NCBI GenBank assembly: GCA_964437095.1 | Contig: CAYTFH010000015.1 | Coordinates: 851-64,850, forward strand | Source: an uncultured bacterium | GTDB taxonomy: Bacteria > Sysuimicrobiota > Sysuimicrobiia > Sysuimicrobiales > Sysuimicrobiaceae | DNA length: 64,000 nt | Direction of reading: 5' to 3' | Part shown: piece by piece, positions 22,985-56,594 of the stretch | Numbering within the stretch: position 1 is the stretch's first letter | Layout of the letters: the number at the start of each line of letters is the position of its first letter | Notes under the pieces: model-generated | Seen by the model: the letters and a program-made list of their open reading frames with translations, nothing else | Databases searched by the model: none | What the model was told of the DNA's origin: nothing | Translations under genes and position numbers: made by a program

Positions 22985-22985
22985 G

Positions 22986-43469: not shown

Positions 43470-43472
43470 CCC

Positions 43473-44018
43473 ATGCGGCCGGGCCACAGCTGGGTCCCCC
43501 ACATGGCGGTGCGACGTGTGAGCGACATCCCCTTGGAGTTGCTGGTCCTCCGGGGAATCCGGGCTGTGGTGTTCGACCTGGACAACACCCTGGTGCCCTA
43601 CGGATCTTCGGAAGTCCCCGAGGATGTGGCCCGGTGGCTGGAGGAGTTCCGGCGGCGCGGCCTCGCAGGGGCGTTGGTGTCCAACACCCTGCCCGGCAGG
43701 GCGAGGGCCTTGGCGTCGCGCCTGGGCTGGCCCGCGGTCGGGGGCTGGCCCAAGCCCAACCCGGGCAGGCTCCGGCGGGCCATGGCCCTACTGGGCACAA
43801 CACCCGCCACCACGGCCTCCGTGGGGGACCAGCTGTTCACGGACGTCTGGCCGGCGAACCTCCTGGGGCTGTTCACCATCCTGGTGGAGCCCCTGCACCC
43901 CCGGGAGTTCCCCACCACCCGGCTGGTCCGCTGGCTGGAGCGCCTGGCCGGCCGGGGCAGAATCGTCCGGCAGCGTTCGGGCAGGATTTCCCCGCAGGTC
44001 GGTGGAACCAACTCCTAG
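43473..44018 (+). CDS. HAD-IIIA phosphatase, YqeG-like
   Basis: VVFDLDNTLV motif I, VSNT motif II, GDQLFTD motif IV. Confidence 0.75.
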   Translation: MRPGHSWVPHMAVRRVSDIPLELLVLRGIRAVVFDLDNTLVPYGSSEVPEDVARWLEEFRRRGLAGALVSNTLPGRARALASRLGWPAVGGWPKPNPGRLRRAMALLGTTPATTASVGDQLFTDVWPANLLGLFTILVEPLHPREFPTTRLVRWLERLAGRGRIVRQRSGRISPQVGGTNS

Positions 44019-44046
44019 TCCGGCGGGTGCGCGGGGAACAAGGGCG

Positions 44047-44418
44047 ATGTCGCTGCGGGACGTTCTGCGGGAGATCCTCTCCAGCGTGGAAGGAGCCCTG
44101 GGGGTGGCGGTGGTGCGCCTGGACGGTCAGGTGGTGGACAGCTACAGCTTGGACGGCGGGTTACGGATCGAGAAGGTGGCCCCGGATCTGGGGATCCTGG
44201 CCAAGGTGTCCGCGTACGCCGCCCGCAAGCTCAGCGCCGGGCCCGTGGACTACTCCGTGGTGTCCGCGGAGAAGTACGTCCTGTTGCTCTCCGCGGTGGA
44301 GGTGGACTACGCCCTGGTGATCGCCCTCCGCCAGGGAGGCAACCTGGGCAAGGCCCGCCTGCAGATGAAGAAGAACCTGGACCGGGTGGCCGCACAGCTG
44401 CGTACTTCGGTCTCGTGA
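44047..44418 (+). CDS. roadblock/LC7 (MglB-like) domain protein
   Basis: 123 aa; alpha-beta-alpha roadblock pattern GALGVAVVRLDGQVVDS... Confidence 0.65.
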   Translation: MSLRDVLREILSSVEGALGVAVVRLDGQVVDSYSLDGGLRIEKVAPDLGILAKVSAYAARKLSAGPVDYSVVSAEKYVLLLSAVEVDYALVIALRQGGNLGKARLQMKKNLDRVAAQLRTSVS

Positions 44419-45323
44419 AGCCCGCCCTGCGTCCCTGGCCGGTGAGCGTGGTGGCCGTGTGCGTGTGCGCTCTGGCCGCCTCCGCTGCAGGGGCGTCCCC
44501 TGACCCCGGCGCCGCAGGAAGATCCCTCTACCAGGCCGGCCGGTACCGGGAGGCCGCTCAAGCCTTCAGGGAGGCCACCCTGCGCCGGCCGTCCGACCCC
44601 GCGGCGTGGCTGTGGTACGGCGCGGCCCTGCTCATGGCGGGCCGCGCGGGGGAGGCGCTGGAGCCCCTGCGCCGCGCCGCCCACGGGCCTGGGGCGGCCC
44701 ACGCGTGGCTGTGGGCGGGGGTCGCCTACGAGCAGCTGGGCCAGGACGCCGCGGCCAGGACGGCTTACCAGACCGTCCTACGCCTACACCCCGCCAGCGA
44801 GGCCGCGTATTGGGCCGCCCGCCGCCTCCGGGCCCTGCGCGCCGCGGAGCAAGCTCAGGCCCTCGCCACGGACCCCGGTACCTACGAGAAGCTCGCGCTT
44901 CAGCACAACCCGCGCCTTGCACCCCACGAAGCCCGGCGCATCGGCCAGGCCCTGGTGCACTACGGCCGTGCCTTCGACGTGGACCCCAGGTTCGTCAGCG
45001 CCGTGGTGCTGGTGGAGTCGGGCTTCAATCCCCGCGCCGTCTCCCCCGCGGGAGCCCTGGGCCTGGGCCAGCTGATGCCCGAGGTGGCCCGGTCCGCGGG
45101 GGTGCGGGACCCCTTCTCCATCGAGGACAACCTGTACGGCACCGTGCGGGTTCTGCGGGGCCACCTGGACCGGTTCGGCTACCACTGGGTGCAGCTGGCC
45201 CTAGCCGCCTACAACGCGGGAACGGGGGCGGTGAGCCGCCACGGCGGGGTCCCGCCGTACCCGGAGACGGGGTGGTACGTGTACCACGTGAGCCGGCTTT
45301 ACCTGCGCTTCCTCGGGCCGTAG
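44415..45323 (+). CDS. secreted lytic transglycosylase (SLT domain) with N-terminal TPR repeats
   Basis: signal peptide, TPR-like repeats, SLT motifs VESGFNP...GLGQLMP...AAYNAG. Confidence 0.8.
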   Translation: MKPALRPWPVSVVAVCVCALAASAAGASPDPGAAGRSLYQAGRYREAAQAFREATLRRPSDPAAWLWYGAALLMAGRAGEALEPLRRAAHGPGAAHAWLWAGVAYEQLGQDAAARTAYQTVLRLHPASEAAYWAARRLRALRAAEQAQALATDPGTYEKLALQHNPRLAPHEARRIGQALVHYGRAFDVDPRFVSAVVLVESGFNPRAVSPAGALGLGQLMPEVARSAGVRDPFSIEDNLYGTVRVLRGHLDRFGYHWVQLALAAYNAGTGAVSRHGGVPPYPETGWYVYHVSRLYLRFLGP

Positions 45324-45414
45324 ACCACCCCGGTCCCCTTTTCGCGAAGGTGTAAGGTCTCTCGGACACCCTCCTCGGAGCGTGTCCGAAGAACGCCCGA
45401 AGTCAATGACGACC

Positions 45415-45453
45415 GGGGTCCCCAAAATCCCGCGAGCGATTCTGGGGCGGTCT
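45415..45453. repeat. copy 2 of the palindromic intergenic motif
   Basis: GGGGTCCCCAAAATCCCGCGAGCGATTCTGGGGCGGTCT; stem retains pairing through changed bases (GAGG/CTC versus AAA/TCTG). Confidence 0.6.
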
Positions 45454-45460
45454 CGTGACT

Positions 45461-45476
45461 GGCCTGGAAGTTGCTC
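45461..45476 (+). repeat. 16-mer GGCCTGGAAGTTGCTC upstream of the LivJ-like binding-protein gene
   Basis: identical 16-mer recurs at 46657..46672 upstream of the TAXI binding-protein gene. Confidence 0.55.
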
Positions 45477-45521
45477 CGCAGGAGGCCGCAGGCCGGCGTC
45501 CTCAGAAAGGGGGGAACGAGC

Positions 45522-46649
45522 GTGGTGCGACACGCGTTGCGGTGGGTTTTGGTGCTGTGGGTGCTGCTCGCCCTGGCCGGGTGCGGCGGGTCGAGCTCGT
45601 CCCAGGTGACCGTGCGGGTCGGGGTGATCCTGCCCACCACCAGCGGGATGGCCGCGGCGGCGGCCAGCGCCCTGCGGGGAGCCCAGATGGCGGCGGACGA
45701 GGTGAACGCGGAACGGCGGGTGCGCCTGGTCCTGGTCACCCACGACGACTACGGCTCGCCCCAGAAGGCCATCGAGCTGTTCCAGCGGCTGAGCTCCGAC
45801 CCGGGGGTGGCCGCGGTGATCGGGGGGGTCACGGACGCGGTGGCGGTCCAGCTGTCCGCGGTGGCCTCCGCCACCCAAACCCCCCTGTTGAGCCCGGGTG
45901 CCACCGGCCCCATCCCCTTCGCTGGCCAGTACTTCTTCCGCACGTCCTTGCCCTCTTCGGTGCAGGGCAAAGCCTTGGCGGAGTACGCCCTGAGCAAGGG
46001 GATGGGTCAGGCGTCGGTGGTCCAGGACACCAACGAATACGGCAGCGCGGTGGCCGAGGGGTTCTCCCAGGCCATGCGGGCGGGAGGGGGCACGGTGCTG
46101 AGCCAGCACCTGTTCACCGACGGCACCCGGGACTTCTCGCCCGTGGTGCGTGCCCTGCAGCGGGAGAGGCCGGACGTGGTCCTGTTCGCAGGCTACCCCG
46201 ACGAGGGGGTGATCTTCGTCCAGCAGCTGGCCCAGGCGGGCGTCCCGACGGCTCTTCTGGCGCCGGACTCGTTCGCCAGCCCGGAGCTGGCAGCCGCAGT
46301 CCCACGGCGGGGGATGGTGGTGGCCTCCGTGTTCTTCGCCGACAGCCCCATGCCGCGGGTCCGGGCCTTTGTGCGGGAGTTCCGCAGCCGCTACGGCCAG
46401 AGCCCGGACGCATTCGCCGCCCAGGCGTACGACGCGGTGAAGCTGGTGGCCGTGGCCGTGAAGCGCCTGGGCCCGGGCGCCTACCAGTCCCAGGACCGCG
46501 TGGACCGCGCCAAGCTGAGGGACGCGTTGGCCGCCACCCAGGACTTCCCCGGGGTCACGGGGACCATCACCTTCGACCGCCTAGGTAACCCGGCCCGGGA
46601 CGTGCAGCTCCTGCGGGTGGACGGGGGCAGGCTGGTGGTCCTGCCGTGA
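45522..46649 (+). CDS. lipoprotein; LivJ/LivK-type (PBP type I) ABC substrate-binding protein, orphan
   Basis: LAGCGG lipobox; Leu/Ile/Val-binding-fold pattern; no permease or ATPase adjacent. Confidence 0.75.
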   Translation: MVRHALRWVLVLWVLLALAGCGGSSSSQVTVRVGVILPTTSGMAAAAASALRGAQMAADEVNAERRVRLVLVTHDDYGSPQKAIELFQRLSSDPGVAAVIGGVTDAVAVQLSAVASATQTPLLSPGATGPIPFAGQYFFRTSLPSSVQGKALAEYALSKGMGQASVVQDTNEYGSAVAEGFSQAMRAGGGTVLSQHLFTDGTRDFSPVVRALQRERPDVVLFAGYPDEGVIFVQQLAQAGVPTALLAPDSFASPELAAAVPRRGMVVASVFFADSPMPRVRAFVREFRSRYGQSPDAFAAQAYDAVKLVAVAVKRLGPGAYQSQDRVDRAKLRDALAATQDFPGVTGTITFDRLGNPARDVQLLRVDGGRLVVLP

Positions 46650-46656
46650 ACCCGGT

Positions 46657-46672
46657 GGCCTGGAAGTTGCTC
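46657..46672 (+). repeat. 16-mer GGCCTGGAAGTTGCTC upstream of the TAXI binding-protein gene
   Basis: exact repeat of 45461..45476. Confidence 0.55.
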
Positions 46673-46776
46673 TGAAGCTTTCAGGCAGGTTCGCTGGAGC
46701 TCCCCGGAAGGATCTCGCGGGCCCAGGGGGAAAGCCTACCGGTGCGATGCAATCCAACCCGAGGGGAGGGATTCGC

Positions 46777-47757
46777 GTGAGGGCTCGGTGGGTCGTCGCT
46801 CTGGTGGGGCTGGTGCTGGGGGTGGCGGCGGTGGGGACCGCTCAGCCCCGCCGGTTCGTGAACTTGGCCACGGGCGGGACCGCGGGCGTGTACTTCCCCC
46901 TGGGTAGCGCCCTCGCCCGCCTGTGGACGGAGCGGGTCCCGGGCGTTCAGGCCACCGCGCAGACCACCGGTGCATCCGTGGCCAACGTGCGGCTGCTGCA
47001 GCGGGGCGACGTGGAGGTGGCCTTCGCGCAGAACGACATCGTGTACTACGCGTACAACGGGATCGAGATGTTCAGCCGGGACCCCCAGACCCGGCTCCGG
47101 GGCATGGCCATGCTGTACCCGGAGACCATCCAGATCGTCACCCTGCGGCAGAAGAACATCAACTCCGTGGCGGACCTGGCGGGCAAGCGGGTGGCGGTGG
47201 GGGCGCCCGGGAGCGGCACGGAGGTGAACGCCCGCCAGATCCTCCGGCTGTACGACATCGGCTACGTGCAGACCCGGCAGACCCACGGTTTGCCGCGCAC
47301 GGTGCAGGCGGACTTCCTCAGCTTCGCGGAGGCCGCGGACCAGCTCAAGGACGGGGTCATCGACGCCGCCTTCCTCACCGCGGGGGTCCCCACCGCGGCG
47401 GTGCAGGACATCGCGGCCGCCCGGGACCTCAAGATCGTGCCCATCCCGGCTCAGGACGCGGCGCGGCTGCGGGAGCGCTACCCGTACTACACGCCCGTGA
47501 CCATCCCCGCCAACAGCTACCGCGGGCAGACGGAGGCCGTGCCCACGGTGGCGGTGATGGCCATGTTGGTCACCCGGTCCGACCTACCCGAGGACCTGGT
47601 GTACGAACTCACCAAGGCCATGTGGGAGAACGTGGCCACACTCCACCAGGCCCACGCCCGGGGACGGGACGTCCGCCTGGAGACGGCGCGGGCGGGGATG
47701 CCCATCCCCGTGCACGCCGGCGCCCTGCGGTACTACCGGGAGCGGGGCGCCCGGTGA
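46777..47757 (+). CDS. TAXI-family TRAP transporter solute receptor, orphan
   Basis: signal peptide; GGTAGVYFPLG...AQND TAXI signature; GGGAGGGA then 5 nt then GTG. Confidence 0.75.
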   Translation: MRARWVVALVGLVLGVAAVGTAQPRRFVNLATGGTAGVYFPLGSALARLWTERVPGVQATAQTTGASVANVRLLQRGDVEVAFAQNDIVYYAYNGIEMFSRDPQTRLRGMAMLYPETIQIVTLRQKNINSVADLAGKRVAVGAPGSGTEVNARQILRLYDIGYVQTRQTHGLPRTVQADFLSFAEAADQLKDGVIDAAFLTAGVPTAAVQDIAAARDLKIVPIPAQDAARLRERYPYYTPVTIPANSYRGQTEAVPTVAVMAMLVTRSDLPEDLVYELTKAMWENVATLHQAHARGRDVRLETARAGMPIPVHAGALRYYRERGAR

Positions 47758-47794
47758 GGGCCGGGGGGGCGGCCCCGGGGGAGGCGGTGGACCG

Positions 47795-48082
47795 GTGAGG
47801 CGCGCTTCCGTCAGGCAGGCCCAAGGGACGGACCGTACGACGCCCATCTACCCCATCCGCACCGTGGCGCAGATGACGCAGCTTTCGCCGCAGCGGATCC
47901 GGTCGTGGGAGAGGCAGTACGGCCTCGTGCGGCCCCACCGGACGGATGGCGGGCACCGGCTGTACAGCCAGCAGGACGTGGAGCGCCTGTTGTGGATCAA
48001 GCGGATGGTTCAGGAACAGGGCCTGAGCCTCCAGGGCGTGAGGAGGCTGCTGGAGGAGAGCACCCGACGGTGGGGGCGGTGA
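47795..48082 (+). CDS. MerR-family HTH transcriptional regulator (short, DNA-binding domain only)
   Basis: YPIRTVAQMTQLSPQRIRSWERQYGL...HRLYSQQDVERL. Confidence 0.75.
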   Translation: MRRASVRQAQGTDRTTPIYPIRTVAQMTQLSPQRIRSWERQYGLVRPHRTDGGHRLYSQQDVERLLWIKRMVQEQGLSLQGVRRLLEESTRRWGR

Positions 48083-48957
48083 AGTTGGTGCAGGGCACGT
48101 GGGAGGGAGAGGACCTGGTGGCGGAAGCCCTGGAAGCCCCCGCCCTATACCGGGGGCTTTCCACGGAGTACGCGGACGTGGGGCGGCTGGTGGACTACTT
48201 GGGCGACCGGCTCTTCTCCGGACTGGTCCGGGTCACCTTGCCCGGACGGGAGGGCCACGTGCTGCTGTTCCGGGGCCGGCCTCAGGCGGCCCGCTACCGG
48301 GTGGAGGGAAGGCAGCTGGAAGCCGCGGAGGCGGTGCGGGCCCTGCTGGCGGACAGCCGGTGGATGGACGGAGAGATGTGGGTCCACCAGCTCCCGGAGG
48401 AGCTGTTCCCGGAGGACTGGGAGGATCGCCAGCCTCTGCCGTGGGACGCGGTGGAGGCGGTGCACGCCCACCCGGAGGAGGTGGACGCGAAAGCGGGGCC
48501 CGCTGAGTTGGCCGTGGACGTGCCGGCACCCGAGGTGGTGGTGCACGAGCCGACGCCGGCGCAAGAGGTCTCGGCCCCGGCCGGGCCGGTCGGGGAGCAG
48601 GTGCAGGCCCCGCACGAGGCCGCTGCCCCGGCCCAGCAGACCGTGGACGCGCTGCCGTGGGTGCGGGTGCTGGAAGGCCTCGTGGCGCGGTTCAAGCGGT
48701 ACCGGGGGCCGAGCGCGGCGAGCCGCCTGGAAGCGGAGGTGAACGCGGCGTTGCAGGGCAGCGGGCTGCGGTTGCAACGGGGGCGGGTGGAAGGCGAGGT
48801 CAGGGACCCGGAGGCCTTGAGGCTCGCCACGGTGCGGGCGGTGGGGTTCATCAAGGGGATGGCGGGTCAGACCTTCGCGGAGCAGACTCTGGCGGTGGCC
48901 ATGACGGACGCGGGCATCAAGGACCAGACAGCCCTCAGGAGCCTGTTGGGCTCGTAA
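48079..48957 (+). CDS. PATAN/DUF4388-like domain protein 1
   Basis: GTGA overlap with MerR gene; N-terminal FSGLVRVTLPGREGHVLLFRGR...EAVRALL pattern typical of DUF4388. Confidence 0.55.
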   Translation: MKLVQGTWEGEDLVAEALEAPALYRGLSTEYADVGRLVDYLGDRLFSGLVRVTLPGREGHVLLFRGRPQAARYRVEGRQLEAAEAVRALLADSRWMDGEMWVHQLPEELFPEDWEDRQPLPWDAVEAVHAHPEEVDAKAGPAELAVDVPAPEVVVHEPTPAQEVSAPAGPVGEQVQAPHEAAAPAQQTVDALPWVRVLEGLVARFKRYRGPSAASRLEAEVNAALQGSGLRLQRGRVEGEVRDPEALRLATVRAVGFIKGMAGQTFAEQTLAVAMTDAGIKDQTALRSLLGS

Positions 48958-48969
48958 GGAGGTCGACGG

Positions 48970-49746
48970 GTGCGGACGGCAGCGTGGGTCGCCGGGATCC
49001 TGCTGGTGCTGGTGGTGGCGGCGGCGGTGGTGGTGGCGCAGCGGCCGGTGCGCGCCGCGCACGTGCAGGTGCAGCACACGGCCGTGAGCGCCGCCCTGGT
49101 CCTGTTCCCTCTGGTGGCCGCGGCCGCCAGCTTCGGCGCCGCCAGCGAGTACCGGCCCGGGGACCGGGAGCGGACGGTGTGGAACAGCCTGGGAGCTGCG
49201 TGCGTGCTGTGGTCTGTGGGCCGCGCGGTGTTCTGGTACACCCAGGCCACGGGTCATCCGGCCTCCTTCCCCTCCGTGCCGGAGCTGCTCACCGCGGGCT
49301 TCTTCGCCTTGGGGCTGTGGGCCGTGTACCAGGAGTACCAGGCGGTACGGGAGCTGGTGGGACCCGCCCACCGCCTGACCATGGGCGCGGTGGCCGCGGC
49401 GGTCCTGGGGGTGGGCTACGTCCTGTTCCTCCGGCCGGTGGTGGCGGGGGGCCTGGGAGGGGCCGCGGAGTCGGTGAGCGTCGCCCTTTCCCTGGCCGGT
49501 CTGGCCATGATCCCTCTGGCCATCGCGCCGGCCTTGGCGTTCTTCGGGGGTCTGGTGGGCTACGTGTGGCTGGTGCTGTCCGCCTCCCTGGTGTGCATCG
49601 CCGTGGCGGTCATGTGGCTGAGCAACGCGGTGTTCTTCGACGTGTGGTTCGCAGGCCACCGCAGCAACGTGTTGCAGATGGTGGGGTTCGCCCTGCTGGC
49701 GGTGGGAGCCGCCTGGCACCGGGACCTCATGCGGGAGGGCGGATGA
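48970..49746 (+). CDS. polytopic membrane protein (about 6-7 TM), hypothetical
   Basis: GGAGG RBS then GTG; hydrophobic helices throughout. Confidence 0.6.
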   Translation: MRTAAWVAGILLVLVVAAAVVVAQRPVRAAHVQVQHTAVSAALVLFPLVAAAASFGAASEYRPGDRERTVWNSLGAACVLWSVGRAVFWYTQATGHPASFPSVPELLTAGFFALGLWAVYQEYQAVRELVGPAHRLTMGAVAAAVLGVGYVLFLRPVVAGGLGGAAESVSVALSLAGLAMIPLAIAPALAFFGGLVGYVWLVLSASLVCIAVAVMWLSNAVFFDVWFAGHRSNVLQMVGFALLAVGAAWHRDLMREGG

Positions 49747-50726
49747 TCCACCGACTGCCTGCCGGCGACGTGCGGGAGGAGTGGAGCAGCATCTCCTCCG
49801 CGGAGTTGCGTGCCCTGGCGGACAGCCTACGCCGCCGGGACTTCTGCGGCTACGTGGAGCTGCGCTGGCCCGACTGTGAGGGTGCCCTGATCCTGTCCGG
49901 CGACGGCAAGGTGTTCGCGGTGTTCCAGGCGGACGCGGCGGACCTCCGGGGGTCGGAGGCCCTGCGGCACATCCTGACTCGGGCGGAGCGGCTGCCCCCG
50001 CGGGCCCGGGTGGTGGCCCTGCCCCACAGCCTGGGGCCCTTGCTGGGCTCTCTGAGCGAGCTGCACCCGTTGCACACGGGCCTGCATACCCGGTTCGTGG
50101 ACCTGGACAAGCTGGCCACGCGGCTGGTGCGGGACGGGTTCTCCGGCCTGCTGATCCTGGAGGGGGAAGGTTGGTGGGCCTTCCTCCCCTTCGGCGAGGA
50201 AGGCAACGGCGCCGTGTACTACGACGGCCACACCGTCCTGGGCCGCGACCGCGGGGAGCTGGTGGACCAGCTGGTGGGGGTCGGGGCCGAGGTGGAGGTG
50301 TGGGTCAGCCCTGCGGTGCCGCCGAGCACGGTGGACCTGGAGGCCCCGCCCGCGGAGGCCGCGCCCCCCCTACCCTCGCAGCCTGCCCCGCCCGCGGAGG
50401 AAGTTGCACTGGCCCCTCCGCCGCCCCGACCGGAGGAGGCGGGGGAAGCACCGCCGGCGGACTGGTCGGCGTACAAAGGTTCGGACACCTTCGTGGTGGT
50501 CCCCGCGGTGGACGTGGAAGACCCGGACTGCGGGCCCGTACGGGAGCTGCGCCATCAGTTCGGGGAGCTGGCCGTGGAGTTGGCCCGTCGGCTGGACGGG
50601 ACCCACACCCTGGAGGAGGTTCGGCGAGAACTCGGTCGCTCCGCCCAGGAGTTGGAACCGATCTTGCTCTACCTCCAGCAGCGGAAGTGGATGGCCCGTT
50701 ACTTCCGCCGACGGGGGCAGCGGTGA
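49743..50726 (+). CDS. tandem PATAN/DUF4388-like domain protein 2 with Pro-rich linker
   Basis: ATGA overlap; two repeats of the G(F/C)xGxLxL...G.(A/G)xxYxxG...GxEAL pattern; PPAEAAPPLPSQPAPP linker. Confidence 0.55.
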   Translation: MIHRLPAGDVREEWSSISSAELRALADSLRRRDFCGYVELRWPDCEGALILSGDGKVFAVFQADAADLRGSEALRHILTRAERLPPRARVVALPHSLGPLLGSLSELHPLHTGLHTRFVDLDKLATRLVRDGFSGLLILEGEGWWAFLPFGEEGNGAVYYDGHTVLGRDRGELVDQLVGVGAEVEVWVSPAVPPSTVDLEAPPAEAAPPLPSQPAPPAEEVALAPPPPRPEEAGEAPPADWSAYKGSDTFVVVPAVDVEDPDCGPVRELRHQFGELAVELARRLDGTHTLEEVRRELGRSAQELEPILLYLQQRKWMARYFRRRGQR

Positions 50727-51484
50727 CCGGACGTGCGGCCAAGGACCTACCCGACGACGCCGAGGCGCTGGCGTTGTTCCGGGAGTACCGCGCCACCGCG
50801 GACCCGGTCCTCCACGCCCGTATCTGCGCCGCCTACGCGCCCCTGGTGGAGCGCATCGCGCGGGCGTACCGGGGGAGCGGCGAGCTGCTGGAGGACCTGG
50901 TGCAGGTGGGGTACGTGGGCCTGCTGCTGGCCGTCAACCGCTTCGACCCCGACCGCGGGGTGAAGTTCCACACGTACGCGTCCCACGTGATCGCGGGGGA
51001 GATCCGGCACTACCTCCGGGACCAGGTGGGCGTGGTGCGCCGGCCCCGGTGGCTGAGCAAGCTGAGCCGGGAGCTGGAGGCGGCGGTGGAGCGCCTGCAG
51101 CACCGGCTGGGCCGGCTGCCCACGGTGGACGAGATCGCCCAGGAGATGAACGTCACGCCGGAGGGGGTGCGGGAGATCCTGCAGGCCCGGGCCGCGTCCT
51201 CGCCCCTGTCTCTGGACGGGGCGCAGGGGGAGCGGGTGCGCCGGATCCGGCACCTGCGCTACCAGACCCTGCAGCTCCCGGTGGAGGACCGCATCGCGGT
51301 GCAGCAGGCCATGGAGCGCCTGAGCGAGCTGCAGCGCAAGGTCCTGTACTTGCTCTTCTACCGGGACCTCACGGAGACCGAAGCCGCCCGCCGGCTGCGG
51401 GTCTCCCAGAAGCACGTGTCGCGGGTGATGCACAAGGCGTTGCGGCAGATGGCGCAGCTCCTGCGGGGGGCGGCGCGCTCCTAG
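50723..51484 (+). CDS. group-3 sigma-70 factor (SigB/SigF/SigG-like)
   Basis: region 2 (LVQVGYVGLLLAVNRFDPDRGVKFHTYASHVIAGEI), region 3 and region 4 HTH (TETEAARRLRVSQKHVSR); GTGA overlap. Confidence 0.85.
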   Translation: MTGRAAKDLPDDAEALALFREYRATADPVLHARICAAYAPLVERIARAYRGSGELLEDLVQVGYVGLLLAVNRFDPDRGVKFHTYASHVIAGEIRHYLRDQVGVVRRPRWLSKLSRELEAAVERLQHRLGRLPTVDEIAQEMNVTPEGVREILQARAASSPLSLDGAQGERVRRIRHLRYQTLQLPVEDRIAVQQAMERLSELQRKVLYLLFYRDLTETEAARRLRVSQKHVSRVMHKALRQMAQLLRGAARS

Positions 51485-51521
51485 CCGCACGGAGACCGAA
51501 GGGGGAGGAGGGTCGGAGCCC

Positions 51522-51875
51522 ATGTCGGACCTTCGGAAGGTGCTGGGGGAGTTCACCCAGCTGGACGGTGTGGTGGCCGCCCTGGTGGTGGGCCGCGACG
51601 GCTTCGTCATCGAGGGCGCCGCCACCGAGGACGTGGACCTGGAGGCCCTGGGCGCGGTCACCGCCAGCAGCTTGGCCGCCTCCGACGCCCTGTCCACGGA
51701 CCTGGGGCGGGGCAAGCTGTTCGGCCTGATGCTGGAGTACGAAGGGGGTCCCCTGGTGGTGGCGCCCGTGGGTTCCGAGGCGATGCTGGTGGTGGTGGGC
51801 AACGGGACCGCCAACCTGGGCCGCATCCGCCTGGAGCTGAAGAAGCGGCACCACCTGGTGGCCGACGCCCTATAG
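51522..51875 (+). CDS. roadblock/LC7 (MglB-like) domain protein
   Basis: 117 aa; GVVAALVVGRDGFVIEGAA...GKLFGLMLEYEGGPLVVAPV roadblock pattern. Confidence 0.7.
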   Translation: MSDLRKVLGEFTQLDGVVAALVVGRDGFVIEGAATEDVDLEALGAVTASSLAASDALSTDLGRGKLFGLMLEYEGGPLVVAPVGSEAMLVVVGNGTANLGRIRLELKKRHHLVADAL

Positions 51876-51896
51876 GGCCCCCGTACAATTGAGGGC

Positions 51897-52622
51897 GTGA
51901 GGGGTGAAGGCCCGGGCGGGGAGGAGCGTCGCACCGCCTGGCGCGTGGACCTGCGGGGTCTTGCGGACTACGAGACCACCTGGCGGCTCCAGCGCCAGCT
52001 GGTGGTATGCCGCCAGCAAGGTGCAGTCCCCGATGTGCTGCTGTTGGTGGAGCACCCGCCGGTGGTCACGTGCGGCCGGGCCACCCGGCCCGAGCATCTG
52101 TTGACGCCCCGCGAGACCCTCCAGCGCCTGGGGTTCGGGGTGTTCGACGTGGAGCGGGGTGGCAGCGTCACCTACCACGGCCCCGGTCAGCTGGTGGGCT
52201 ACCCCATCGTGGACCTGCGCGCCTACGGCGAGAACGTGGTGGGCTACGTGCGGATGCTGGAGGAGAGTGTGATCCGCACCCTGGCCAGCTACGGCGTAGC
52301 CGCCGGGCGTCGGCCCGGCTTTCCCGGGGTGTGGGTGGGCGACCAGAAGATCGCGGCGGTGGGTGTGGCGGTCAAGCGCCGGGTTACCCTACACGGGTTC
52401 GCCCTCAACGTATCCACGGACTTGGACGCCTTCCGGGTCATCAACCCGTGCGGCATCGGGTACACCCCCACGTCCCTGGAACGGCTGCTGGGCCGTGGGG
52501 TGGCCCTGGAGGAGGTTCGGGATCGCTACGCCCGCAGCTTCGAGGAGGTGTTCCGGGTCCGCCTCGAGTCGGTGAGCCCGGGCCGGCTCCGGGCCGCCTG
52601 CGGACTGCCCGCCGTGGGCTAG
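51897..52622 (+). CDS. lipB: lipoyl(octanoyl) transferase
   Basis: LLLVEHPPVVTCGRAT...GGSVTYHGPGQLVGYP...KIAAVGVAVKR motifs. Confidence 0.9.
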   Translation: MRGEGPGGEERRTAWRVDLRGLADYETTWRLQRQLVVCRQQGAVPDVLLLVEHPPVVTCGRATRPEHLLTPRETLQRLGFGVFDVERGGSVTYHGPGQLVGYPIVDLRAYGENVVGYVRMLEESVIRTLASYGVAAGRRPGFPGVWVGDQKIAAVGVAVKRRVTLHGFALNVSTDLDAFRVINPCGIGYTPTSLERLLGRGVALEEVRDRYARSFEEVFRVRLESVSPGRLRAACGLPAVG

Positions 52623-52718
52623 AGTTTCCAGCTCCACCCTCCGGCCGTGATAGACTGCTGCGTAGGCGCCCGGTGGAACTCCCGGCGCCGGACGCGGTCG
52701 CGAGGAGGTGCGTTCGGA

Positions 52719-53015
52719 ATGCCCACCGTCTACCTGCCCGCACCCCTGCGCCGCCTCACGGGCGGCGCATCCCGGGTGGAAGTCCCGCCGGGGACCGTGG
52801 AGGACGTGCTGCGAGCCCTGGACGAGCGGTACCCAGGCATGCGGGCGCAGCTGTGCGAGCCGGACGGCTCGGTGCGGGCGTTCATCAACGTGTTCGTGAA
52901 CGGCTCGGAGATCCGCACCCTGCAGGGCCCGCAGACCCCCGTGGGGGAAGCCGACGAGGTGTCCATCATCCCCGCCATGGCCGGCGGGGCGGCTCGGAGG
53001 TGCCTTTGTCGGTGA
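52719..53015 (+). CDS. ThiS/MoaD/CysO-like ubiquitin-fold sulfur-carrier protein with 8-aa extension after the GG
   Basis: beta-grasp pattern ending ...IIPAMAGG followed by AARRCLCR and stop; GAGGAGG RBS. Confidence 0.7.
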   Translation: MPTVYLPAPLRRLTGGASRVEVPPGTVEDVLRALDERYPGMRAQLCEPDGSVRAFINVFVNGSEIRTLQGPQTPVGEADEVSIIPAMAGGAARRCLCR

Positions 53016-53084
53016 CCCGCAGCACCTCCACGGCCCGCGCCTGAAGCGGGCCGGTTGCGCCCGGCCTACCGGAGGGCTGGGCCG

Positions 53085-53939
53085 GTGAGCTCGCAGGGCC
53101 GAGCCGGCGCGCCGGGAGCCCAGGCCGGTGTCCTGCTGCCGGACCTGCGGTTCTTCCCCGCATCCAGCGTGCTCCTGCACGAGGAGGAGGACCCGCCGCG
53201 CGTAGACCGCCTGGTGGGCCGGCTTCGGGAAGAGGGGGTACTGCGCAACCCTCCGCTGGCCGCGGAGCTGGGCGACGGCCGCGTGGTGATCCTGGACGGT
53301 GCCAACCGGGTGACCGCCCTGCAGCGCATGGGAGCGGTCTTCGTGCTGGTGCAGGTGGTGCCCTACCACGACCCCGGGGTGGTCCTGGACCGCTGGCACC
53401 ACCTCCTGCAGGAGGTGCCGGACGGGCTGGTGGAGCACCTCCGCCGCGAGATCCCCCTGCAGCCCGAGCGTCCCGAGCGGGCTCCGGAACGGCTGGCGAG
53501 GGGCGAGCTGCTGGCCTACCTGCGGCAGGGTGAAGGCGCGTGGGCCGTCCCGCGGTCGGAAGCCCTCACGGAGGGGGCTTGGTGGCTGCGGAGCTTGGTG
53601 GCCTCGTACCGGGGACGCGTCCCGTACCACCGGGTGGACTCCGAGGACGTGGAGCTTTTGTCCGCCCGGTACGGCCAGGTGCGGGCCCTGGTGGCCTTCG
53701 GCCGGTTCAGTAAGTCCGACATCCTGGAGCTGGCGCGCAACGCCGCGAAGCTGCCCGCGGGGGTGACCCGCCACGTGGTGCCGGGCAGGGCCCTGCGGGT
53801 GAACCTGCCCCTGAAAGTGGCCTTCGGTGCGGGGACGTTGGAGGAGAAGAACGCTTGGCTGGCGGACTGGGTGCGCTGGCAGGTGCGGGAAGGGCGGGTG
53901 CGGTACTACCCCGAGCCCACGGTGCTGTTCGACGAGTGA
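53085..53939 (+). CDS. ParB/Sulfiredoxin (DGQHR-like) domain protein, function unknown
   Basis: LLPDLRF...VDRLVGRLREEGVLRNPP...VVILDGANRVTALQRMG ParB N-domain pattern; GTG after GGAGGG (alternative ATG at 53055). Confidence 0.55.
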   Translation: MSSQGRAGAPGAQAGVLLPDLRFFPASSVLLHEEEDPPRVDRLVGRLREEGVLRNPPLAAELGDGRVVILDGANRVTALQRMGAVFVLVQVVPYHDPGVVLDRWHHLLQEVPDGLVEHLRREIPLQPERPERAPERLARGELLAYLRQGEGAWAVPRSEALTEGAWWLRSLVASYRGRVPYHRVDSEDVELLSARYGQVRALVAFGRFSKSDILELARNAAKLPAGVTRHVVPGRALRVNLPLKVAFGAGTLEEKNAWLADWVRWQVREGRVRYYPEPTVLFDE

Positions 53940-53959
53940 CCAGAAGGAGCGTGTGGAGC

Positions 53960-54898
53960 GTGGCTTACCGGTTCGAGACCAAACTCCCGAGGATCGGGGA
54001 AGACCTGCTGCAACGCATCGGCAACACGCCCTTGCTGCGCCTCCGGCGGGTGACCCGGGGCCTGCCGGAGGGCGTGGAGGTGTGCGTGAAGGCGGAATGG
54101 TTCAACCCCGGCGGGTCGGTAAAGGACCGGCCCGTGCTGTGCATGATCGAGGACGCGGAGCGGGCGGGCCTGCTGACCCCCGACAAGGTCCTCCTGGACT
54201 CCACCTCGGGCAACGCGGGCATCGCGTACGCCATGATCGGCGCGGCCAAGGGCTACCGGGTGAAGCTGGTCATGCCCGCCAACGCCAGCGAGGAGCGCAA
54301 GCGCATGATCCGCGCCTACGGTGCGGAGCTGGTGTTCAGCGACCCCCTGGAGGGCTCTGACGGCGCCATCCTCCTGGCCCGCCGCATCCAGGAGGAAGAC
54401 CCCGACCGCTACTTCAAGCCCGACCAGTACAACAACCCCTCCAACTGGAAGGCCCACTACGACACCACGGGCCCGGAGATCCTGGCCCAGACCGAGGGCC
54501 GCATCACCCACTTCGTGGGCACTCTGGGCACCACGGGGACCGTGGTGGGGGTGGGCCGGCGGCTGCGGGAGTTCAACCCCGAGATCCAGATCGTGGCGGT
54601 GGAGCCCGACAGCCCCCTGCACGGCATCGAGGGGCTCAAGCACATCGCCAGCTCCATCCGTCCGGGCATCTACGACCCCTCCGTCCACCACCGCAAGTTG
54701 GGCGTGAGCACCGAGGCCGCGTACGCCATGGCCCGCCGCCTGGCCCGGGAGGAGGGGATGTTCGTGGGAGCCTCCGCGGGGGCCGCGGTGTGGGCGGCCC
54801 TGCAGGTGGCCCGGGAGCTCCGGGAGGGGCTGGTGGTGGCCCTGGCCCCGGACGGGGGCGACCGGTACCTCAGCACCGCCCTGTGGCGGGACGTGTAG
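53960..54898 (+). CDS. cysM: PLP-dependent cysteine synthase (CysM/CysK family)
   Basis: KAEWFNPGGSVKDR PLP-lysine motif; SGNAGIA; GTG 10 nt after AGAAGGAG. Confidence 0.85.
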   Translation: MAYRFETKLPRIGEDLLQRIGNTPLLRLRRVTRGLPEGVEVCVKAEWFNPGGSVKDRPVLCMIEDAERAGLLTPDKVLLDSTSGNAGIAYAMIGAAKGYRVKLVMPANASEERKRMIRAYGAELVFSDPLEGSDGAILLARRIQEEDPDRYFKPDQYNNPSNWKAHYDTTGPEILAQTEGRITHFVGTLGTTGTVVGVGRRLREFNPEIQIVAVEPDSPLHGIEGLKHIASSIRPGIYDPSVHHRKLGVSTEAAYAMARRLAREEGMFVGASAGAAVWAALQVARELREGLVVALAPDGGDRYLSTALWRDV

Positions 54899-54912
54899 TA
54901 TCCTGGGTGGGG

Positions 54913-55332
54913 ATGGGGACGCTGCGGGAGACGGAGAGCCTCCGGGTGAGCCCGGAGCACGTGCAGGCCATGGTGGAGCACGCGCGGGCGGAGGCGCCCA
55001 ACGAGTGCTGCGGCGTGCTCACCGGGCGCGACGGCCGCGTGGAGCAGGTGGTCCCGGTGGCCAACGCGGACCGCAGCCCGTACACGTACCGCATGGATCC
55101 GCGGGAGCTGTTGCGGGTGTACCAGCGGGCGGACGCGGAGGGCCTGGAGGTCCTGGGCTACTACCACTCCCACCCCTCCACCCCTGCCGTGCCGTCCCGC
55201 ACGGACGTGGCCCGGGCGGTGGACCCCTTCGCGGTGTACGTGATCGTGTCGCTGGCCACCGAGCCCCCTGAGGTCCGCGCGTACCGCATCCTGGACGGAG
55301 GGTACCGGGAGCTGGAGCTGAGCGTGCGATGA
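54913..55332 (+). CDS. JAMM/MPN+ metalloprotease (Mec+/QbsD-like)
   Basis: E...HSHPSTPAVPSRTD JAMM motif; 140 aa. Confidence 0.8.
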   Translation: MGTLRETESLRVSPEHVQAMVEHARAEAPNECCGVLTGRDGRVEQVVPVANADRSPYTYRMDPRELLRVYQRADAEGLEVLGYYHSHPSTPAVPSRTDVARAVDPFAVYVIVSLATEPPEVRAYRILDGGYRELELSVR

Positions 55333-55787
55333 GGTTCTCCACCCGAGCGGAGTACGGGTTGCGCGCCCTCATCGACCTGGCGCTGTTCGGCCATGAGGGT
55401 CCGGTGCAGACCCACGACATCGGCCGCCGCCAGGGGCTGCCCGAACCCTACCTGAACCAGCTGCTGGCCCAGCTGCGGCGGGCGGGCCTGGTGGTGAGCA
55501 AGCGCGGCCCCCACGGCGGCCACCGCCTGGCCCGGCCTCCCGAGGCCATCCGGCTGCACGAGGTGTTCCTGGTCCTGGAGGGAAGCACCTCCCCGTGGGA
55601 GTGCGTGGACCGGGACGACCCCGACTGCACGTACGCCCACGGCTGCGGCCTGCGGCCCCTCTGGCTGCGCCTCAAGGAGGCCACCGACCAGGTCCTGCGC
55701 AACACCACCCTGGCGGACCTGCTGCCCCCCTTCGTGCCCGCGGCTCCTTCCCTGGGGGAGGGACACCGGGCCCGCCCGGTGCTATAA
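55329..55787 (+). CDS. Rrf2-family transcriptional regulator (IscR/CymR-like)
   Basis: RFSTRAEYGLRALIDLA...GPHGGHRLARPP wHTH; Cys cluster CVDRDDPDCTYAHGC; ATGA overlap. Confidence 0.8.
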   Translation: MRFSTRAEYGLRALIDLALFGHEGPVQTHDIGRRQGLPEPYLNQLLAQLRRAGLVVSKRGPHGGHRLARPPEAIRLHEVFLVLEGSTSPWECVDRDDPDCTYAHGCGLRPLWLRLKEATDQVLRNTTLADLLPPFVPAAPSLGEGHRARPVL

Positions 55788-55967
55788 TCGACCCGGAAGG
55801 AGCGACCGGTCCGGTACACCATCGGGAACAGGGTTTTCCTGGAAACGCGGGTCGTGCCCGACCGAGTGGGCTTCGGGGGACAGAGCCCCACAGGTGCGTG
55901 GTCCAGGAGGGCCCTGTTCCCCTGTTTGTTGCGAGCGGGCATGCGGGCCAAGGAAGGAGTTGCGAGC

Positions 55968-56594
55968 GTGGCGGACCGGCCCGGGGCGGACGGGCAGACC
56001 GGGAGGGAGCGGGACCGCGCCCGGTTCGAGGCGCTGGTGCGGGAGCACCTGGACAGCCTGTACGGCGCGGCCCTGCGCCTCACCCGCAACCGCAGCGACG
56101 CGGAGGACCTGCTGCAGGAGACCCTCCTGAAAGCGTGGCGGTCCTTCCACACGTTCGCGGAGGGGACCAACGCCCGGGCCTGGCTGTTCCGGATCCTTAT
56201 GAACGCCCACATCGACCGCTACCGCAAGAGCGCCCGCGAGCCGGAGACCACGGACGTGGAGGACGTGGGCGACTTCTACCTGTACAGCAAGGTGCAGGAG
56301 TCCGAGCTCCTGCGGCGGGTGGGGGATCCCGAGAAGCTGCTGGAACGGGTCATGGAGCACGAGGTGCGGGAGGCCCTGGAGTCCCTGCCGGACCACTTCC
56401 GCAGCGTGGTGATCCTCGCGGACCTGCAGGGCTTCTCGTACAAGGAGATCGCGGACATCCTGGGGATCCCCCTCGGCACCGTGATGTCCCGGCTGTTCCG
56501 CGGCCGACGGCTGCTGCAGCGGAAGCTGTGGGACTACGTACGGTCCCACCACCGGATCACCACCGCGGGGGAGGGTGCCGCCCTTGGACTGTAG
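55968..56594 (+). CDS. ECF (group 4) sigma-70 factor
   Basis: region 2 ([14 protein letters not shown]) and region 4 ([26 protein letters not shown]); AAGGAAGGAG then 8 nt then GTG. Confidence 0.85.

What the first reader, a model, noticed from the sequence alone, without database searches (positions are those of the whole stretch)
47795..51875. MerR - PATAN - membrane protein - tandem PATAN - sigmaB/F-like - roadblock operon: a possible new sigma-factor control module
Six co-directional genes are linked by GTGA or ATGA overlaps or 12 to 37-nt gaps. A group-3 (SigB/SigF-type) sigma factor is flanked not by RsbW/RsbV-type anti-sigma and anti-anti-sigma partners but by two DUF4388/PATAN-like proteins (one with tandem PATAN domains and a Pro-rich linker), a polytopic membrane protein and a roadblock/LC7 (MglB-like) protein. 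PATAN and roadblock domains are known to travel with MglA-type small GTPases, and no GTPase is present here. This suggests a different partner-switching or sequestration mechanism for a stress/sporulation-type sigma factor.
Basis: partly seen in the sequence, partly recalled or inferred. Interest (0 to 1): 0.8.

Follow-up and report, generated by a model that had tools for sequence, protein, structure and literature searches.

The report
Pilus-linked sigma factor operon with PATAN/roadblock partners
A real, conserved six-gene operon in an uncultured hot-spring bacterium (CSP1-3/Sysuimicrobiota) pairs a SigF-like sigma factor with PATAN-like, membrane and roadblock proteins, and relatives show that this sigma belongs to type IV pilus gene clusters and is usually gated by a c-di-GMP riboswitch rather than serving stress or sporulation.

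Summary
The six genes and their junctions are exactly as described. HMMs confirm the MerR, sigma (regions 2, 3 and 4; SigB/F-like) and roadblock assignments. Neither "PATAN" protein hits Pfam DUF4388, even at E<=10. A family profile does reach 146 distant proteins; 52 of the 80 scanned carry DUF4388, and in 7 of 10 checked it lies at or adjoining the aligned stretch. So the PATAN call holds as remote homology only. The tandem-PATAN protein also has an unnoticed C-terminal winged helix.

The main correction concerns context. I dereplicated the neighbourhoods of the sigma's relatives (46-87% identity). Of 28 informative clusters, 24 lie in type IV pilus clusters (PilB/PilT/PilC or pilins), 20 have the small MerR, 22 a roadblock protein, 19 a second divergent roadblock paralogue, and 20 a c-di-GMP-I riboswitch upstream of the sigma gene. 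None shows an RsbW/SpoIIAB/STAS partner or an MglA GTPase. The order PATAN - membrane - PATAN/wHTH - sigma - roadblock recurs in three deep clades. The window's clade has lost the riboswitch, and its sigma gene overlaps the PATAN/wHTH gene.

The best reading is a pilus-dedicated sigma module whose protein partners supply its input. Direct control of the sigma by those partners is inferred, not shown.

The parts
44047..44418 (+). Robl2: a divergent roadblock/LC7 paralogue (123 aa), overlapping the next gene by 4 nt
   Evidence: Pfam Robl_LC7 is sub-threshold (E 0.011, 15.8 bits against a cutoff of 23) but covers profile positions 9-89 of 91. Family-to-family hhalign against the g6 roadblock family gives E about 5e-14, probability 98%. 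It belongs to the same family as the 125-aa gene between MerR and roadblock in the commonest outgroup architecture. It is conserved upstream of the module in clades A and B.
44415..45323 (+). TPR + SLT lytic transglycosylase, a conserved neighbour of the sigma module and of pilus clusters
   Evidence: Precomputed Pfam hits to TPR and SLT in orthologues. tblastn shows it conserved immediately upstream of the sigma gene or riboswitch in outgroup loci.
47795..48082 (+). g1: small MerR-family DNA-binding protein (95 aa), HTH plus the start of the coiled coil, no effector domain
   Evidence: Pfam MerR_1 at 3.5e-20. The best NCBIfam matches are HspR, the CarH N-terminus and MlrA, all below cutoff. 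The nearest PDB sequences are the CarH, GlnR and TnrA DNA-binding domains. A homologue lies immediately downstream of the sigma gene in types I and II, in 20 of 28 clusters.
48079..48957 (+). g2: N-terminal PATAN-like domain (about aa 22-104, nt 48142-48390), disordered acidic/Pro-rich linker (aa 125-188), C-terminal helical domain (aa 192-291)
48970..49746 (+). g3: polytopic membrane protein (258 aa, about 8 hydrophobic segments), always between g2 and g4
   Evidence: Hydropathy analysis. No Pfam or NCBIfam hit. Its position is conserved in clades A, B and C at 31-79% identity.
49743..50726 (+). g4: tandem PATAN-like domains (aa 9-92, nt 49767-50018; aa 108-190, nt 50064-50312), Pro-rich disordered linker (aa 193-237), C-terminal winged helix with an invariant basic tail (aa 250-324, nt 50490-50714). 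Its stop overlaps the sigma start (GTGA).
50723..51484 (+). g5: group-3 (SigB/SigF-like) sigma factor of a type IV pilus cluster-associated subfamily
   Evidence: Pfam regions 2, 3 and 4. NCBIfam SigBFG 185.7 bits (cutoff 234) and SigF PRK07408 169.6 bits. The best PDB sequence is SigF of the SpoIIAB complex, 1l0o_C, at 1.5e-29. Neighbourhood survey.
51522..51875 (+). g6: roadblock/LC7 protein (117 aa, core domain only)
   Evidence: Pfam Robl_LC7 at 1.2e-16. PDB sequence matches to roadblock proteins and MglB at 2e-9 to 1e-5. The MglB equivalog model scores 34.8 bits against a cutoff of 200. It follows the sigma gene in every PATAN-type locus and follows Robl2 in type II loci.

Best explanation
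This is a regulatory operon for type IV pili (T4P), built around a SigF-like alternative sigma factor.

Shown. The sigma subfamily is embedded in T4P gene clusters across many uncultured CSP1-3/'Armatimonadota' lineages. It travels with a small MerR protein and with a pair of roadblock paralogues. In most lineages its gene is preceded by a c-di-GMP-I riboswitch.

Inferred. The sigma directs transcription of pilin/T4P genes, as cyanobacterial SigF does for pilA1, with the effector-less MerR acting as co-regulator. In the window's lineage the RNA input has been replaced by a protein input encoded just upstream. This consists of the PATAN/wHTH protein g4, the PATAN paralogue g2 and the membrane protein g3. 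g4 is translationally coupled to the sigma and sits where rsbW/spoIIAB sit in classical operons. I propose that g4 holds or releases the sigma, that g2 competes through PATAN-PATAN contacts, that g3 anchors or senses at the membrane, and that the Robl/Robl2 pair acts as adaptors. Because PATAN domains bind PilB/PilC in cyanobacteria, the signal is probably the state of the pilus motor, by analogy with the FlgM/FliA checkpoint.
For: - All six outgroup sigma contexts looked up individually lie beside T4P genes.
- In the dereplicated metagenome survey, 24 of 28 informative clusters have PilB/PilT/PilC or pilins within the flanks. MerR is present in 20, Robl in 22, Robl2 in 19, PATAN genes in 8 and a riboswitch in 20.
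- Rfam c-di-GMP-I matches above gathering score sit directly upstream of the sigma gene or its operon. My own covariance model found 57 matches at E<=1.4e-10.
- No riboswitch was found in the window or in any clade A or B locus.
- In clade C the riboswitch lies between the g4-like gene and the sigma gene.
- The order g2-g3-g4-sigma-Robl is conserved in three clades, and the g4/sigma 4-nt overlap occurs in the window and in relatives of clades A and B.
- The module stays intact in clade A even though T4P genes are no longer adjacent.
- No gene with HATPase_c or STAS hits is recorded near the sigma in the 9 loci that have precomputed Pfam annotation.
- Literature: the PATAN domain of PixE binds the PilB1 N-terminal domain and PilC (bioRxiv 10.1101/2021.06.11.447907). 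Cyanobacterial group-3 SigF drives pilA1 (PMC7690835).
Against: - No experiment or structure prediction links g2, g4 or Robl physically to the sigma.
- Type I loci (PilT-PilT-sigma-MerR-PilB-PilC) and type IV loci have the sigma with neither roadblock nor PATAN genes, so these proteins are not general requirements.
- Clade C keeps both the PATAN genes and the riboswitch, so 'replacement' is not a clean rule.
- No target promoter was identified. A GTTT-N-GGGTA scan and a pilin-motif scan of the window found nothing.
- The window holds no T4P genes, and I could not check whether the genome has them elsewhere.
- PATAN membership is remote homology only.
Confidence: 0.5

Rival explanations
1. The PATAN, membrane and roadblock proteins regulate the pilus machine itself: PilB/PilC activity, or polarity through an MglA encoded elsewhere. 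They are merely co-transcribed with the pilus sigma factor or belong to its regulon, and have no direct action on the sigma.
For: PATAN domains bind PilB1 and PilC in Synechocystis. Roadblock proteins of the MglB/MglC type control T4P polarity (papers listed; PDB matches). In types II and III the roadblock gene abuts a PilB gene carrying TPR and MshEN domains. The sigma occurs without these proteins in types I and IV. Remote g4 relatives sit in HAMP - Robl-like - PATAN modules that contain no sigma.
Against: In clade A the module has moved away from the T4P genes yet stays physically joined to the sigma, with a 4-nt g4/sigma overlap. No MglA was found in about 1 Mb of related loci, though that test is weak. 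The positional analogy to antagonist - anti-sigma - sigma operons would then be coincidence.
Confidence: 0.3
2. One reading: a SigB/SigF-type stress or sporulation sigma factor controlled by a novel PATAN/roadblock partner switch, unrelated to pili.
For: The sigma scores best against SigB/F/G models and against SigF of the SpoIIAB complex. No RsbW/RsbV genes are adjacent. The module is not next to T4P genes in the window's own clade.
Against: 24 of 28 dereplicated neighbourhoods of the subfamily are T4P clusters, and 20 of 28 have a c-di-GMP riboswitch. The sigma falls below the curated SigBFG, SigB, SigF and SigG cutoffs. The phylum is not known to sporulate (my own knowledge). Nothing here ties the sigma to stress genes.
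Confidence: 0.07
3. The cluster is a chance juxtaposition of unrelated genes in a genome where nearly all genes are co-directional and tightly packed.
For: Almost every gene in the window is on the + strand. Short overlaps are common in compact high-GC genomes.
Against: The same gene order recurs in three clades with sigma identity down to 46% and g2/g4 identity of about 30%, while the flanking genes differ between clades: LipB in one, T4P genes in others.
Confidence: 0.02

Closest known systems
Cyanobacterial group-3 sigma factor SigF (Synechocystis, Nostoc punctiforme) controlling pilA1/pilA
   Same: Both are group-3 SigB/F-like sigma factors with regions 2, 3 and 4 that are dedicated to type IV pilus biology. 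The NCBIfam SigF model PRK07408 is the second-best hit at 169.6 bits. SigF drives the major pilin operon (PMC7690835).
   Different: The link to pili here is genomic context only and no regulon is known. The score is below the model cutoff of 261. Cyanobacterial sigF is not described with adjacent PATAN, roadblock or MerR genes or with a c-di-GMP riboswitch.
PatA-type PATAN-REC response regulators (PixG, PixE, LsiR, PilG) that bind PilB1/PilC
   Same: The PATAN-like domain is used in a T4P context. In those proteins PATAN is the output domain that contacts the pilus motor and localises to the membrane.
   Different: g2 and g4 have no receiver domain and fail the Pfam DUF4388 threshold. g4 has tandem domains plus a winged helix. 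Both are operon partners of a sigma factor.
MglA/MglB/MglC polarity module (Myxococcus, Thermus)
   Same: Two roadblock paralogues (Robl and Robl2, compare MglB and MglC) are encoded beside motility genes. g6 matches MglB chains at about 1e-6.
   Different: No MglA GTPase lies in the window or in 100 related loci. g6 is a bare 117-aa core domain and scores 34.8 bits against a cutoff of 200 on the MglB equivalog model.
RsbV/RsbW-SigB and SpoIIAA/SpoIIAB-SigF partner-switching operons
   Same: The sigma type is the same. The gene order is analogous: two related upstream genes, the second overlapping the sigma gene.
   Different: No STAS or GHKL-kinase proteins are present. PATAN-like, membrane and roadblock proteins stand in their place. 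No phosphorylation chemistry is evident.
FlgM/FliA flagellar checkpoint and RsiG/WhiG (c-di-GMP-armed anti-sigma)
   Same: Both are precedents for a group-3 sigma held by a non-kinase anti-sigma whose release reports machine assembly (FlgM) or c-di-GMP level (RsiG; cited in PMC12448109). The WhiG chains 6pfv and 6pfj appear among the sigma's PDB matches.
   Different: g2 and g4 show no sequence or fold similarity to FlgM or RsiG. In relatives c-di-GMP acts through an RNA aptamer, not a protein.
c-di-GMP riboswitch control of motility genes in Clostridioides difficile (flgB operon with sigD; pilA1)
   Same: A c-di-GMP riboswitch gates an operon that contains a motility sigma factor, or gates T4P genes (papers listed).
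   Different: This applies to the relatives only, because the window has no riboswitch. The sigma subfamily and the phylum are different.
Streptomyces conservons (CvnA-D)
   Same: Both combine a membrane protein, a roadblock protein and a wHTH protein as a signalling cassette. A neighbour of a remote g4 relative shows a weak DUF742 hit on its wHTH.
   Different: There is no GTPase (CvnD) and no sensor kinase-like CvnA. A sigma factor occupies the output position.

Membership tests
PATAN / DUF4388 (Pfam PF14332) | Match to the Pfam HMM at or above the gathering score (25 bits) | tested here: not met
   No hit at E<=1 for g2 or g4. No hit at E<=10 in any of 17 g4-family or 24 g2-family members. 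Only the L016 g2 orthologue gives a sub-threshold hit, 16.6 bits at E 0.008.
PATAN / DUF4388 (Pfam PF14332) | Homology detectable by profile search to bona fide DUF4388 proteins, over the domain itself | tested here: met
   The A1 profile against 1.84e9 representatives gives 146 hits at E<1e-3. Of the 80 scanned, 52 carry DUF4388, best 5.6e-25. In 7 of 10 checked, DUF4388 lies at or adjoining the aligned stretch and corresponds to g4 domain 1 or 2. g2 aligns with g4 domain 1 by hhalign at E 6.7e-5.
PATAN / DUF4388 (Pfam PF14332) | The same three-dimensional fold as a solved PATAN domain | not testable with these tools
   [not shown]
Roadblock/LC7 (Pfam PF03259) | Match to the Pfam HMM above the gathering score (23 bits) | tested here: met
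   g6 scores 60.7 bits at E 1.2e-16 over profile positions 4-90 of 91. Robl2 (44047-44418) scores only 15.8 bits but aligns with the g6 family by hhalign at E about 5e-14.
MglB (GAP of MglA) | Match to the MglB equivalog model, and a cognate MglA GTPase gene | tested here: not met
   NCBIfam MglB (Thermus type) scores 34.8 bits against a cutoff of 200. tblastn with MglA finds nothing in the window or in 100 loci.
SigB/SigF/SigG subfamily (TIGR02980) of group-3 sigma factors | Score above the curated cutoff; regions 2, 3 and 4 present and region 1.1 absent | tested here: inconclusive
   Regions 2, 3 and 4 are present in a 253-aa protein. TIGR02980 is the best model at 185.7 bits but falls below the cutoff of 234.35. 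All the SigB, SigF, SigG and FliA/WhiG equivalogs are also below cutoff.
RsbW/RsbV-type partner-switching module | An adjacent GHKL anti-sigma kinase (HATPase_c_2) and a STAS antagonist | tested here: not met
   No gene with such Pfam hits is recorded near the sigma in the 9 annotated loci. In types II and III every ORF between SLT and PilB is accounted for.
MerR family transcription regulators | An N-terminal MerR HTH, plus a C-terminal effector-binding domain | tested here: inconclusive
   The HTH is clearly present: MerR_1 scores 72.3 bits against a cutoff of 21.6. The protein ends at 95 aa, so it has no effector domain, like the DNA-binding modules of GlnR, TnrA, BldC and CarA.
c-di-GMP-I riboswitch-controlled sigma operon (the state found in relatives) | An RF01051/RF03167 aptamer in the 5' leader of the sigma gene | tested here: not met
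   The window has none, neither at Rfam E<=1 over 41500-52500 nor with model R1 over the whole window. It is present in 20 of 28 dereplicated relatives.
Streptomyces conservon (CvnA-D) | A sensor-kinase-like membrane protein, a roadblock protein, a DUF742 protein and a small GTPase | tested here: not met
   Only the roadblock component is met. g3 has no kinase domain. The g4 wHTH gives no DUF742 hit. No GTPase is present.

The most novel reading that the evidence does not exclude
[quoted passage not shown] In this lineage that protein switch would have taken over the job done by a c-di-GMP riboswitch in related lineages. The result would be a pilus counterpart of the FlgM/FliA flagellar checkpoint.
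Probability: 0.2. Interest if true: 0.8.

Novelty: new variant of a known kind. Interest (0 to 1): 0.6.

Why it matters
How type IV pilus gene expression is coupled to pilus machine activity is poorly understood outside a few model organisms. PATAN and prokaryotic roadblock domains still lack a general mechanistic role.

This module puts a dedicated sigma factor, a c-di-GMP riboswitch (in relatives), two roadblock paralogues and PATAN proteins into one conserved genetic unit. It occurs in a widespread, uncultured phylum of soils and hot springs.

If the PATAN/roadblock proteins control the sigma, that would define a new anti-sigma class and give PATAN a second kind of target. If they do not, the loci still identify a previously undescribed pilus-specific sigma subfamily under c-di-GMP riboswitch control. 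They also provide a natural series of variants (riboswitch only, riboswitch plus PATAN, PATAN only) with which to test how RNA and protein inputs substitute for each other.

Tried and rejected
1. Direct HMM confirmation of PATAN gave no hit in Pfam or NCBIfam for g2, g4 or any of their 41 family members.
2. PDB sequence searches with g2 and g4 gave nothing meaningful.
4. I scanned the window for SigB/F-type promoters (GTTT-N-GGGTA) and for pilin N-terminal motifs, and found none. The sigma-70 promoter and terminator scan of 43000-52700 found nothing useful.
5. tblastn with relatives' PilB, PilT and PilC proteins found no homologue in the window. The cytochrome, kinase and RadC region at 18-32 kb is unrelated housekeeping.
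6. I first thought the riboswitch and the PATAN genes were mutually exclusive. The wider survey rejected this, because clade C has both.
7. I tested whether the 125-aa gene of type II loci is a single PATAN domain. It is not (hhalign probability below 1%). It is the roadblock paralogue Robl2.
Sensitivity is low: the RsbW query missed a genuine HATPase_c kinase in the window.
9. Searches for RsiG- or MshEN-type c-di-GMP motifs in g2 and g4 were done by eye only, and nothing convincing appeared.


Full report
**1. Observation**

The window is 72% G+C, and almost all of its genes lie on the + strand. Between 47795 and 51875 there are six + strand genes:

| Gene | Coordinates | Length |
|---|---|---|
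| g1 (MerR) | 47795-48082 | 95 aa |
| g2 | 48079-48957 | 292 aa |
| g3 | 48970-49746 | 258 aa |
| g4 | 49743-50726 | 327 aa |
| g5 (sigma) | 50723-51484 | 253 aa |
| g6 (roadblock) | 51522-51875 | 117 aa |

A public gene call starts g2 at GTG 48070, so that start is uncertain by 9 nt.

**2. Identities of the proteins**

- **g1.** Pfam confirms MerR_1 at 72.3 bits. It has only the DNA-binding module. Its closest matches are the N-terminal domains of HspR, CarH and MlrA and the small GlnR/TnrA proteins.
- **g5.** Pfam confirms Sigma70 regions 2, 3 and 4. The best NCBIfam models are SigB/F/G (185.7 bits, cutoff 234) and SigF PRK07408 (169.6 bits). FliA/WhiG scores lower, at 116 bits. It is therefore a SigB/F-like group-3 sigma that belongs to none of the curated equivalogs. 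Its best PDB sequence match is SigF from the SpoIIAB complex.
- **g6.** Pfam confirms Robl_LC7 at 60.7 bits. It matches roadblock proteins and MglB in the PDB, but it is far below the MglB equivalog cutoff.
- **g3.** It has about eight hydrophobic segments and no soluble domain.

**3. The PATAN question**

Neither g2 nor g4 gives any Pfam or NCBIfam hit. Nor does any of 17 g4 homologues or 24 g2 homologues, even at E<=10. Both families are small and come only from 'Armatimonadota', GAL15, HR31/HR32 and Ca. Sysuimicrobiota metagenome-assembled genomes.

AF2 models built on the family alignments are reasonably confident (pLDDT 75.5 and 79.0):

- **g4** has two successive alpha/beta domains (aa 9-92 and 108-190), a disordered Pro-rich linker (193-237) and a C-terminal winged helix (250-320).
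- **g2** has one such alpha/beta domain (22-104), a disordered acidic linker and a helical C-terminal domain (192-291).

The g2 domain aligns with g4 domain 1 by hhalign at E 6.7e-5.

An HMM of the g4 family was searched against 1.84 billion representative proteins and found 146 proteins at E<1e-3, mostly over positions 5-230. Of the 80 scanned with Pfam, 52 carry DUF4388/PATAN, with a best E of 5.6e-25. In 7 of 10 checked individually, the DUF4388 match lies at or adjoining the stretch aligned to g4 domain 1 or domain 2. The g2 orthologue of locus L016 also gives a sub-threshold direct DUF4388 hit at the homologous position.

**4. Conservation of the cluster**

The order g2-g3-g4-sigma-roadblock is kept in three groups of loci:

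- close relatives;
- relatives at 44-47% g2/g4 identity, L001 and L003;
- L016 and L019, where g2, g3, g4, sigma and Robl are 34, 40, 30, 52 and 67% identical to the window's proteins.

Upstream lie a 123-aa gene and a TPR-SLT lytic transglycosylase (window 44047-45323; they overlap by 4 nt), and these are also conserved. The 123-aa protein is a divergent roadblock paralogue, which I call Robl2. Pfam gives E 0.011 over nearly the whole profile, and hhalign against the g6 family gives E about 5e-14.

The flanks differ between clades. In the window's clade the roadblock gene is followed by lipB. In the others it is followed by a convergent PilB (TPR+MshEN), a DnaB_C-like ATPase, PilT and PilC.

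**5. What the sigma factor is**

The nearest sigma homologues outside the clade are 49-58% identical. I looked up six of them, and all lie beside type IV pilus genes:

- PilT-PilT-(SLT)-sigma-MerR-PilB-PilC in L015 and L017;
- SLT-sigma-MerR-125aa-Robl-PilB-PilB-PilT in L018;
- the full PATAN module followed by T4P genes in L016 and L019;
- PilB-PilT-PilC ... sigma ... three pilin genes in L020.

I then fetched 80 more loci from metagenomes with a subfamily alignment. I annotated them locally by tblastn, HMMs and a covariance model. After dereplication at 90% sigma identity there were 40 clusters, of which 28 had at least 600 nt upstream and 2.5 kb downstream. Among those 28:

| Feature near the sigma gene | Clusters (of 28) |
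|---|---|
| T4P genes | 24 |
| MerR homologue | 20 |
| Roadblock | 22 |
| Robl2 | 19 |
| PATAN genes | 8 |

The commonest architecture is (SLT)-sigma-MerR-Robl2-Robl-PilB(TPR,MshEN)-PilB-PilT-PilC.

No HATPase_c or STAS gene is recorded near the sigma in any locus with precomputed Pfam hits. No MglA-like gene was found; that test is weak because the queries came from memory.

**6. An unexpected RNA element**

While reading the leaders of the outgroup sigma genes, I recognised c-di-GMP-I riboswitch sequences. Rfam confirms them above gathering score in L015 (two copies), L017 and L018. A covariance model built from these finds 57 copies at E<=1.4e-10 in the collected loci. Nearly all lie 70-300 nt upstream of the sigma gene or at the head of the PilT-PilT-sigma-MerR operon. 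In total, 20 of the 28 dereplicated clusters have one.

The window has none. Neither do the other clade A loci searched or the clade B loci searched (L016, L019, L031, L033-L035). A third, deeper clade (L065, L074, L088, L092, L093, L101) has g2-like, g3-like and g4-like genes (g4 HMM E 1e-6 to 5e-12). In this clade the riboswitch lies between g4 and the sigma gene.

The PATAN cassette and the riboswitch are therefore not mutually exclusive. In the two clades where g4 overlaps the sigma gene, however, the riboswitch is gone.

Several leaders have a U-run directly after the aptamer, or a hairpin plus U-run whose stem is complementary to the aptamer's 3' strand. This suggests transcription-termination control. 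I did not establish its polarity.

**7. Mechanism**

Shown:
- The sigma subfamily belongs to T4P clusters.
- Its conserved companions are a small MerR and two roadblock paralogues.
- Its usual input is c-di-GMP, sensed by an RNA aptamer.
- The PATAN - membrane - PATAN/wHTH cassette always sits immediately upstream of the sigma gene, and it stays attached to the sigma when the T4P genes are no longer adjacent.

Established elsewhere:
- PATAN domains bind the PilB1 N-terminal domain and PilC and localise to the membrane (bioRxiv 10.1101/2021.06.11.447907).
- Cyanobacterial group-3 SigF drives the major pilin operon (PMC7690835).
- C. difficile gates a flagellar operon containing sigD, and also pilA1, with c-di-GMP riboswitches (papers listed).

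Inferred:
- The sigma transcribes pilin/T4P genes.
- g4 occupies the rsbW/spoIIAB position and is translationally coupled to the sigma, so it is the likeliest sigma-binding regulator.
- g2 would be its PATAN paralogue antagonist.
- g3 would be the membrane anchor or sensor.
- Robl/Robl2 would act as adaptors.
- The signal would be the state of the pilus motor, as in a FlgM-like checkpoint.

I put about 0.5 on this overall reading and about 0.2 on the specific anti-sigma claim. The main rival, at 0.3, is that the PATAN and roadblock proteins act only on the pilus motor or its polarity and are merely co-expressed with the sigma. The sigma-less HAMP - Robl-like - PATAN modules of remote g4 relatives and the PATAN-less sigma loci favour that rival.

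**8. Comparison and novelty**

The parts belong to known families, and there are precedents for pilus control by a SigF-type sigma, by PATAN proteins, by roadblock proteins and by c-di-GMP riboswitches. Full-text searches found no paper that links PATAN or roadblock proteins to a sigma factor, and none that describes this sigma subfamily. I therefore class it as a new variant of a known kind, with moderate to high interest.

The 'new control module' idea remains open and can be tested.

**9. Limits**

- All the organisms are uncultured.
- The metagenome survey used two subfamily-specific peptide patterns and kept the best 80 of 439 hits, so it describes this subfamily and not group-3 sigmas in general.
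- I could not search the rest of the window's genome for T4P, MglA or anti-sigma genes.

Noticed in passing
L015 6769-6864 and 3292-3387; L018 6801-6891; L017 4457-4542; 57 copies in all across L015-L101: c-di-GMP-I riboswitches (Rfam RF01051/RF03167) lie in the leaders of the orthologous sigma genes and T4P operons of relatives. There is none in the window. In clade C the aptamer sits between the g4-like gene and the sigma gene.
   Followed up: yes
L043 7924-7940; L052 7891-7905; L018 6891-6910; L092 5438-5490: A U-run lies directly after the aptamer. In L092 and L074 there is instead a hairpin plus U-run whose stem is complementary to the aptamer's 3' strand. Both suggest ligand-controlled transcription termination. 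Whether the switch is on or off with ligand was not determined.
   Followed up: partly
L016 8121-14608; L001 10261-16969: The T4P cluster of relatives contains a PilB with N-terminal TPR repeats plus an MshEN domain (MshEN is a known c-di-GMP-binding domain, from my own knowledge). It also contains a 513-aa DnaB_C/AAA_25-type ATPase between PilB and PilT.
   Followed up: no
L007 793-4380; L008; JGI contig of P0044: Remote g4 relatives sit in a different, sigma-less cassette: HAMP protein, a 123-146-aa protein (weakly roadblock-like in L007), PATAN-PATAN protein, a 143-aa protein, then a PATAN + DUF8082/wHTH protein.
   Followed up: partly
window 45471-47757: Two periplasmic solute-binding protein genes (Peripla_BP_6 type and NMT1_3/TAXI type) lie between Robl2-SLT and the MerR gene in clades A and B. 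They are absent in L003. They look like an insertion into the module rather than part of it.
   Followed up: partly
window 47758-47794: Only 37 nt separate the upstream gene from the MerR start. This stretch holds a G+C-rich hairpin (GGGCCG-GGGGGG-CGGCCC) with no U-run, and no promoter was recognisable. The operon may be read through from upstream genes.
   Followed up: no
window 52647-55787: A cluster of ThiS-like sulfur carrier, an unknown 284-aa protein, a PALP enzyme (CysK/CysM-like), a JAB/Mov34 peptidase and an Rrf2 regulator. It resembles a CysO/Mec+/CysM-type sulfur-carrier cysteine pathway.
   Followed up: no
window 55854-56811: An ECF sigma factor followed by a zf-HC2 anti-sigma gene, a conventional sigma/anti-sigma pair 4 kb downstream of the module. 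A Ppx-GppA gene comes next.
   Followed up: no
window 18499-27214: A respiratory gene cluster: cytochrome c assembly protein, dihaem cytochrome c, two cytochrome b genes (one fused to a 4Fe-4S dicluster domain), a COX1-like oxidase subunit and another cytochrome c.
   Followed up: no
[not shown]
   Followed up: no
window 61196-61269: A tRNA gene (Rfam RF00005, 63.6 bits).
   Followed up: no
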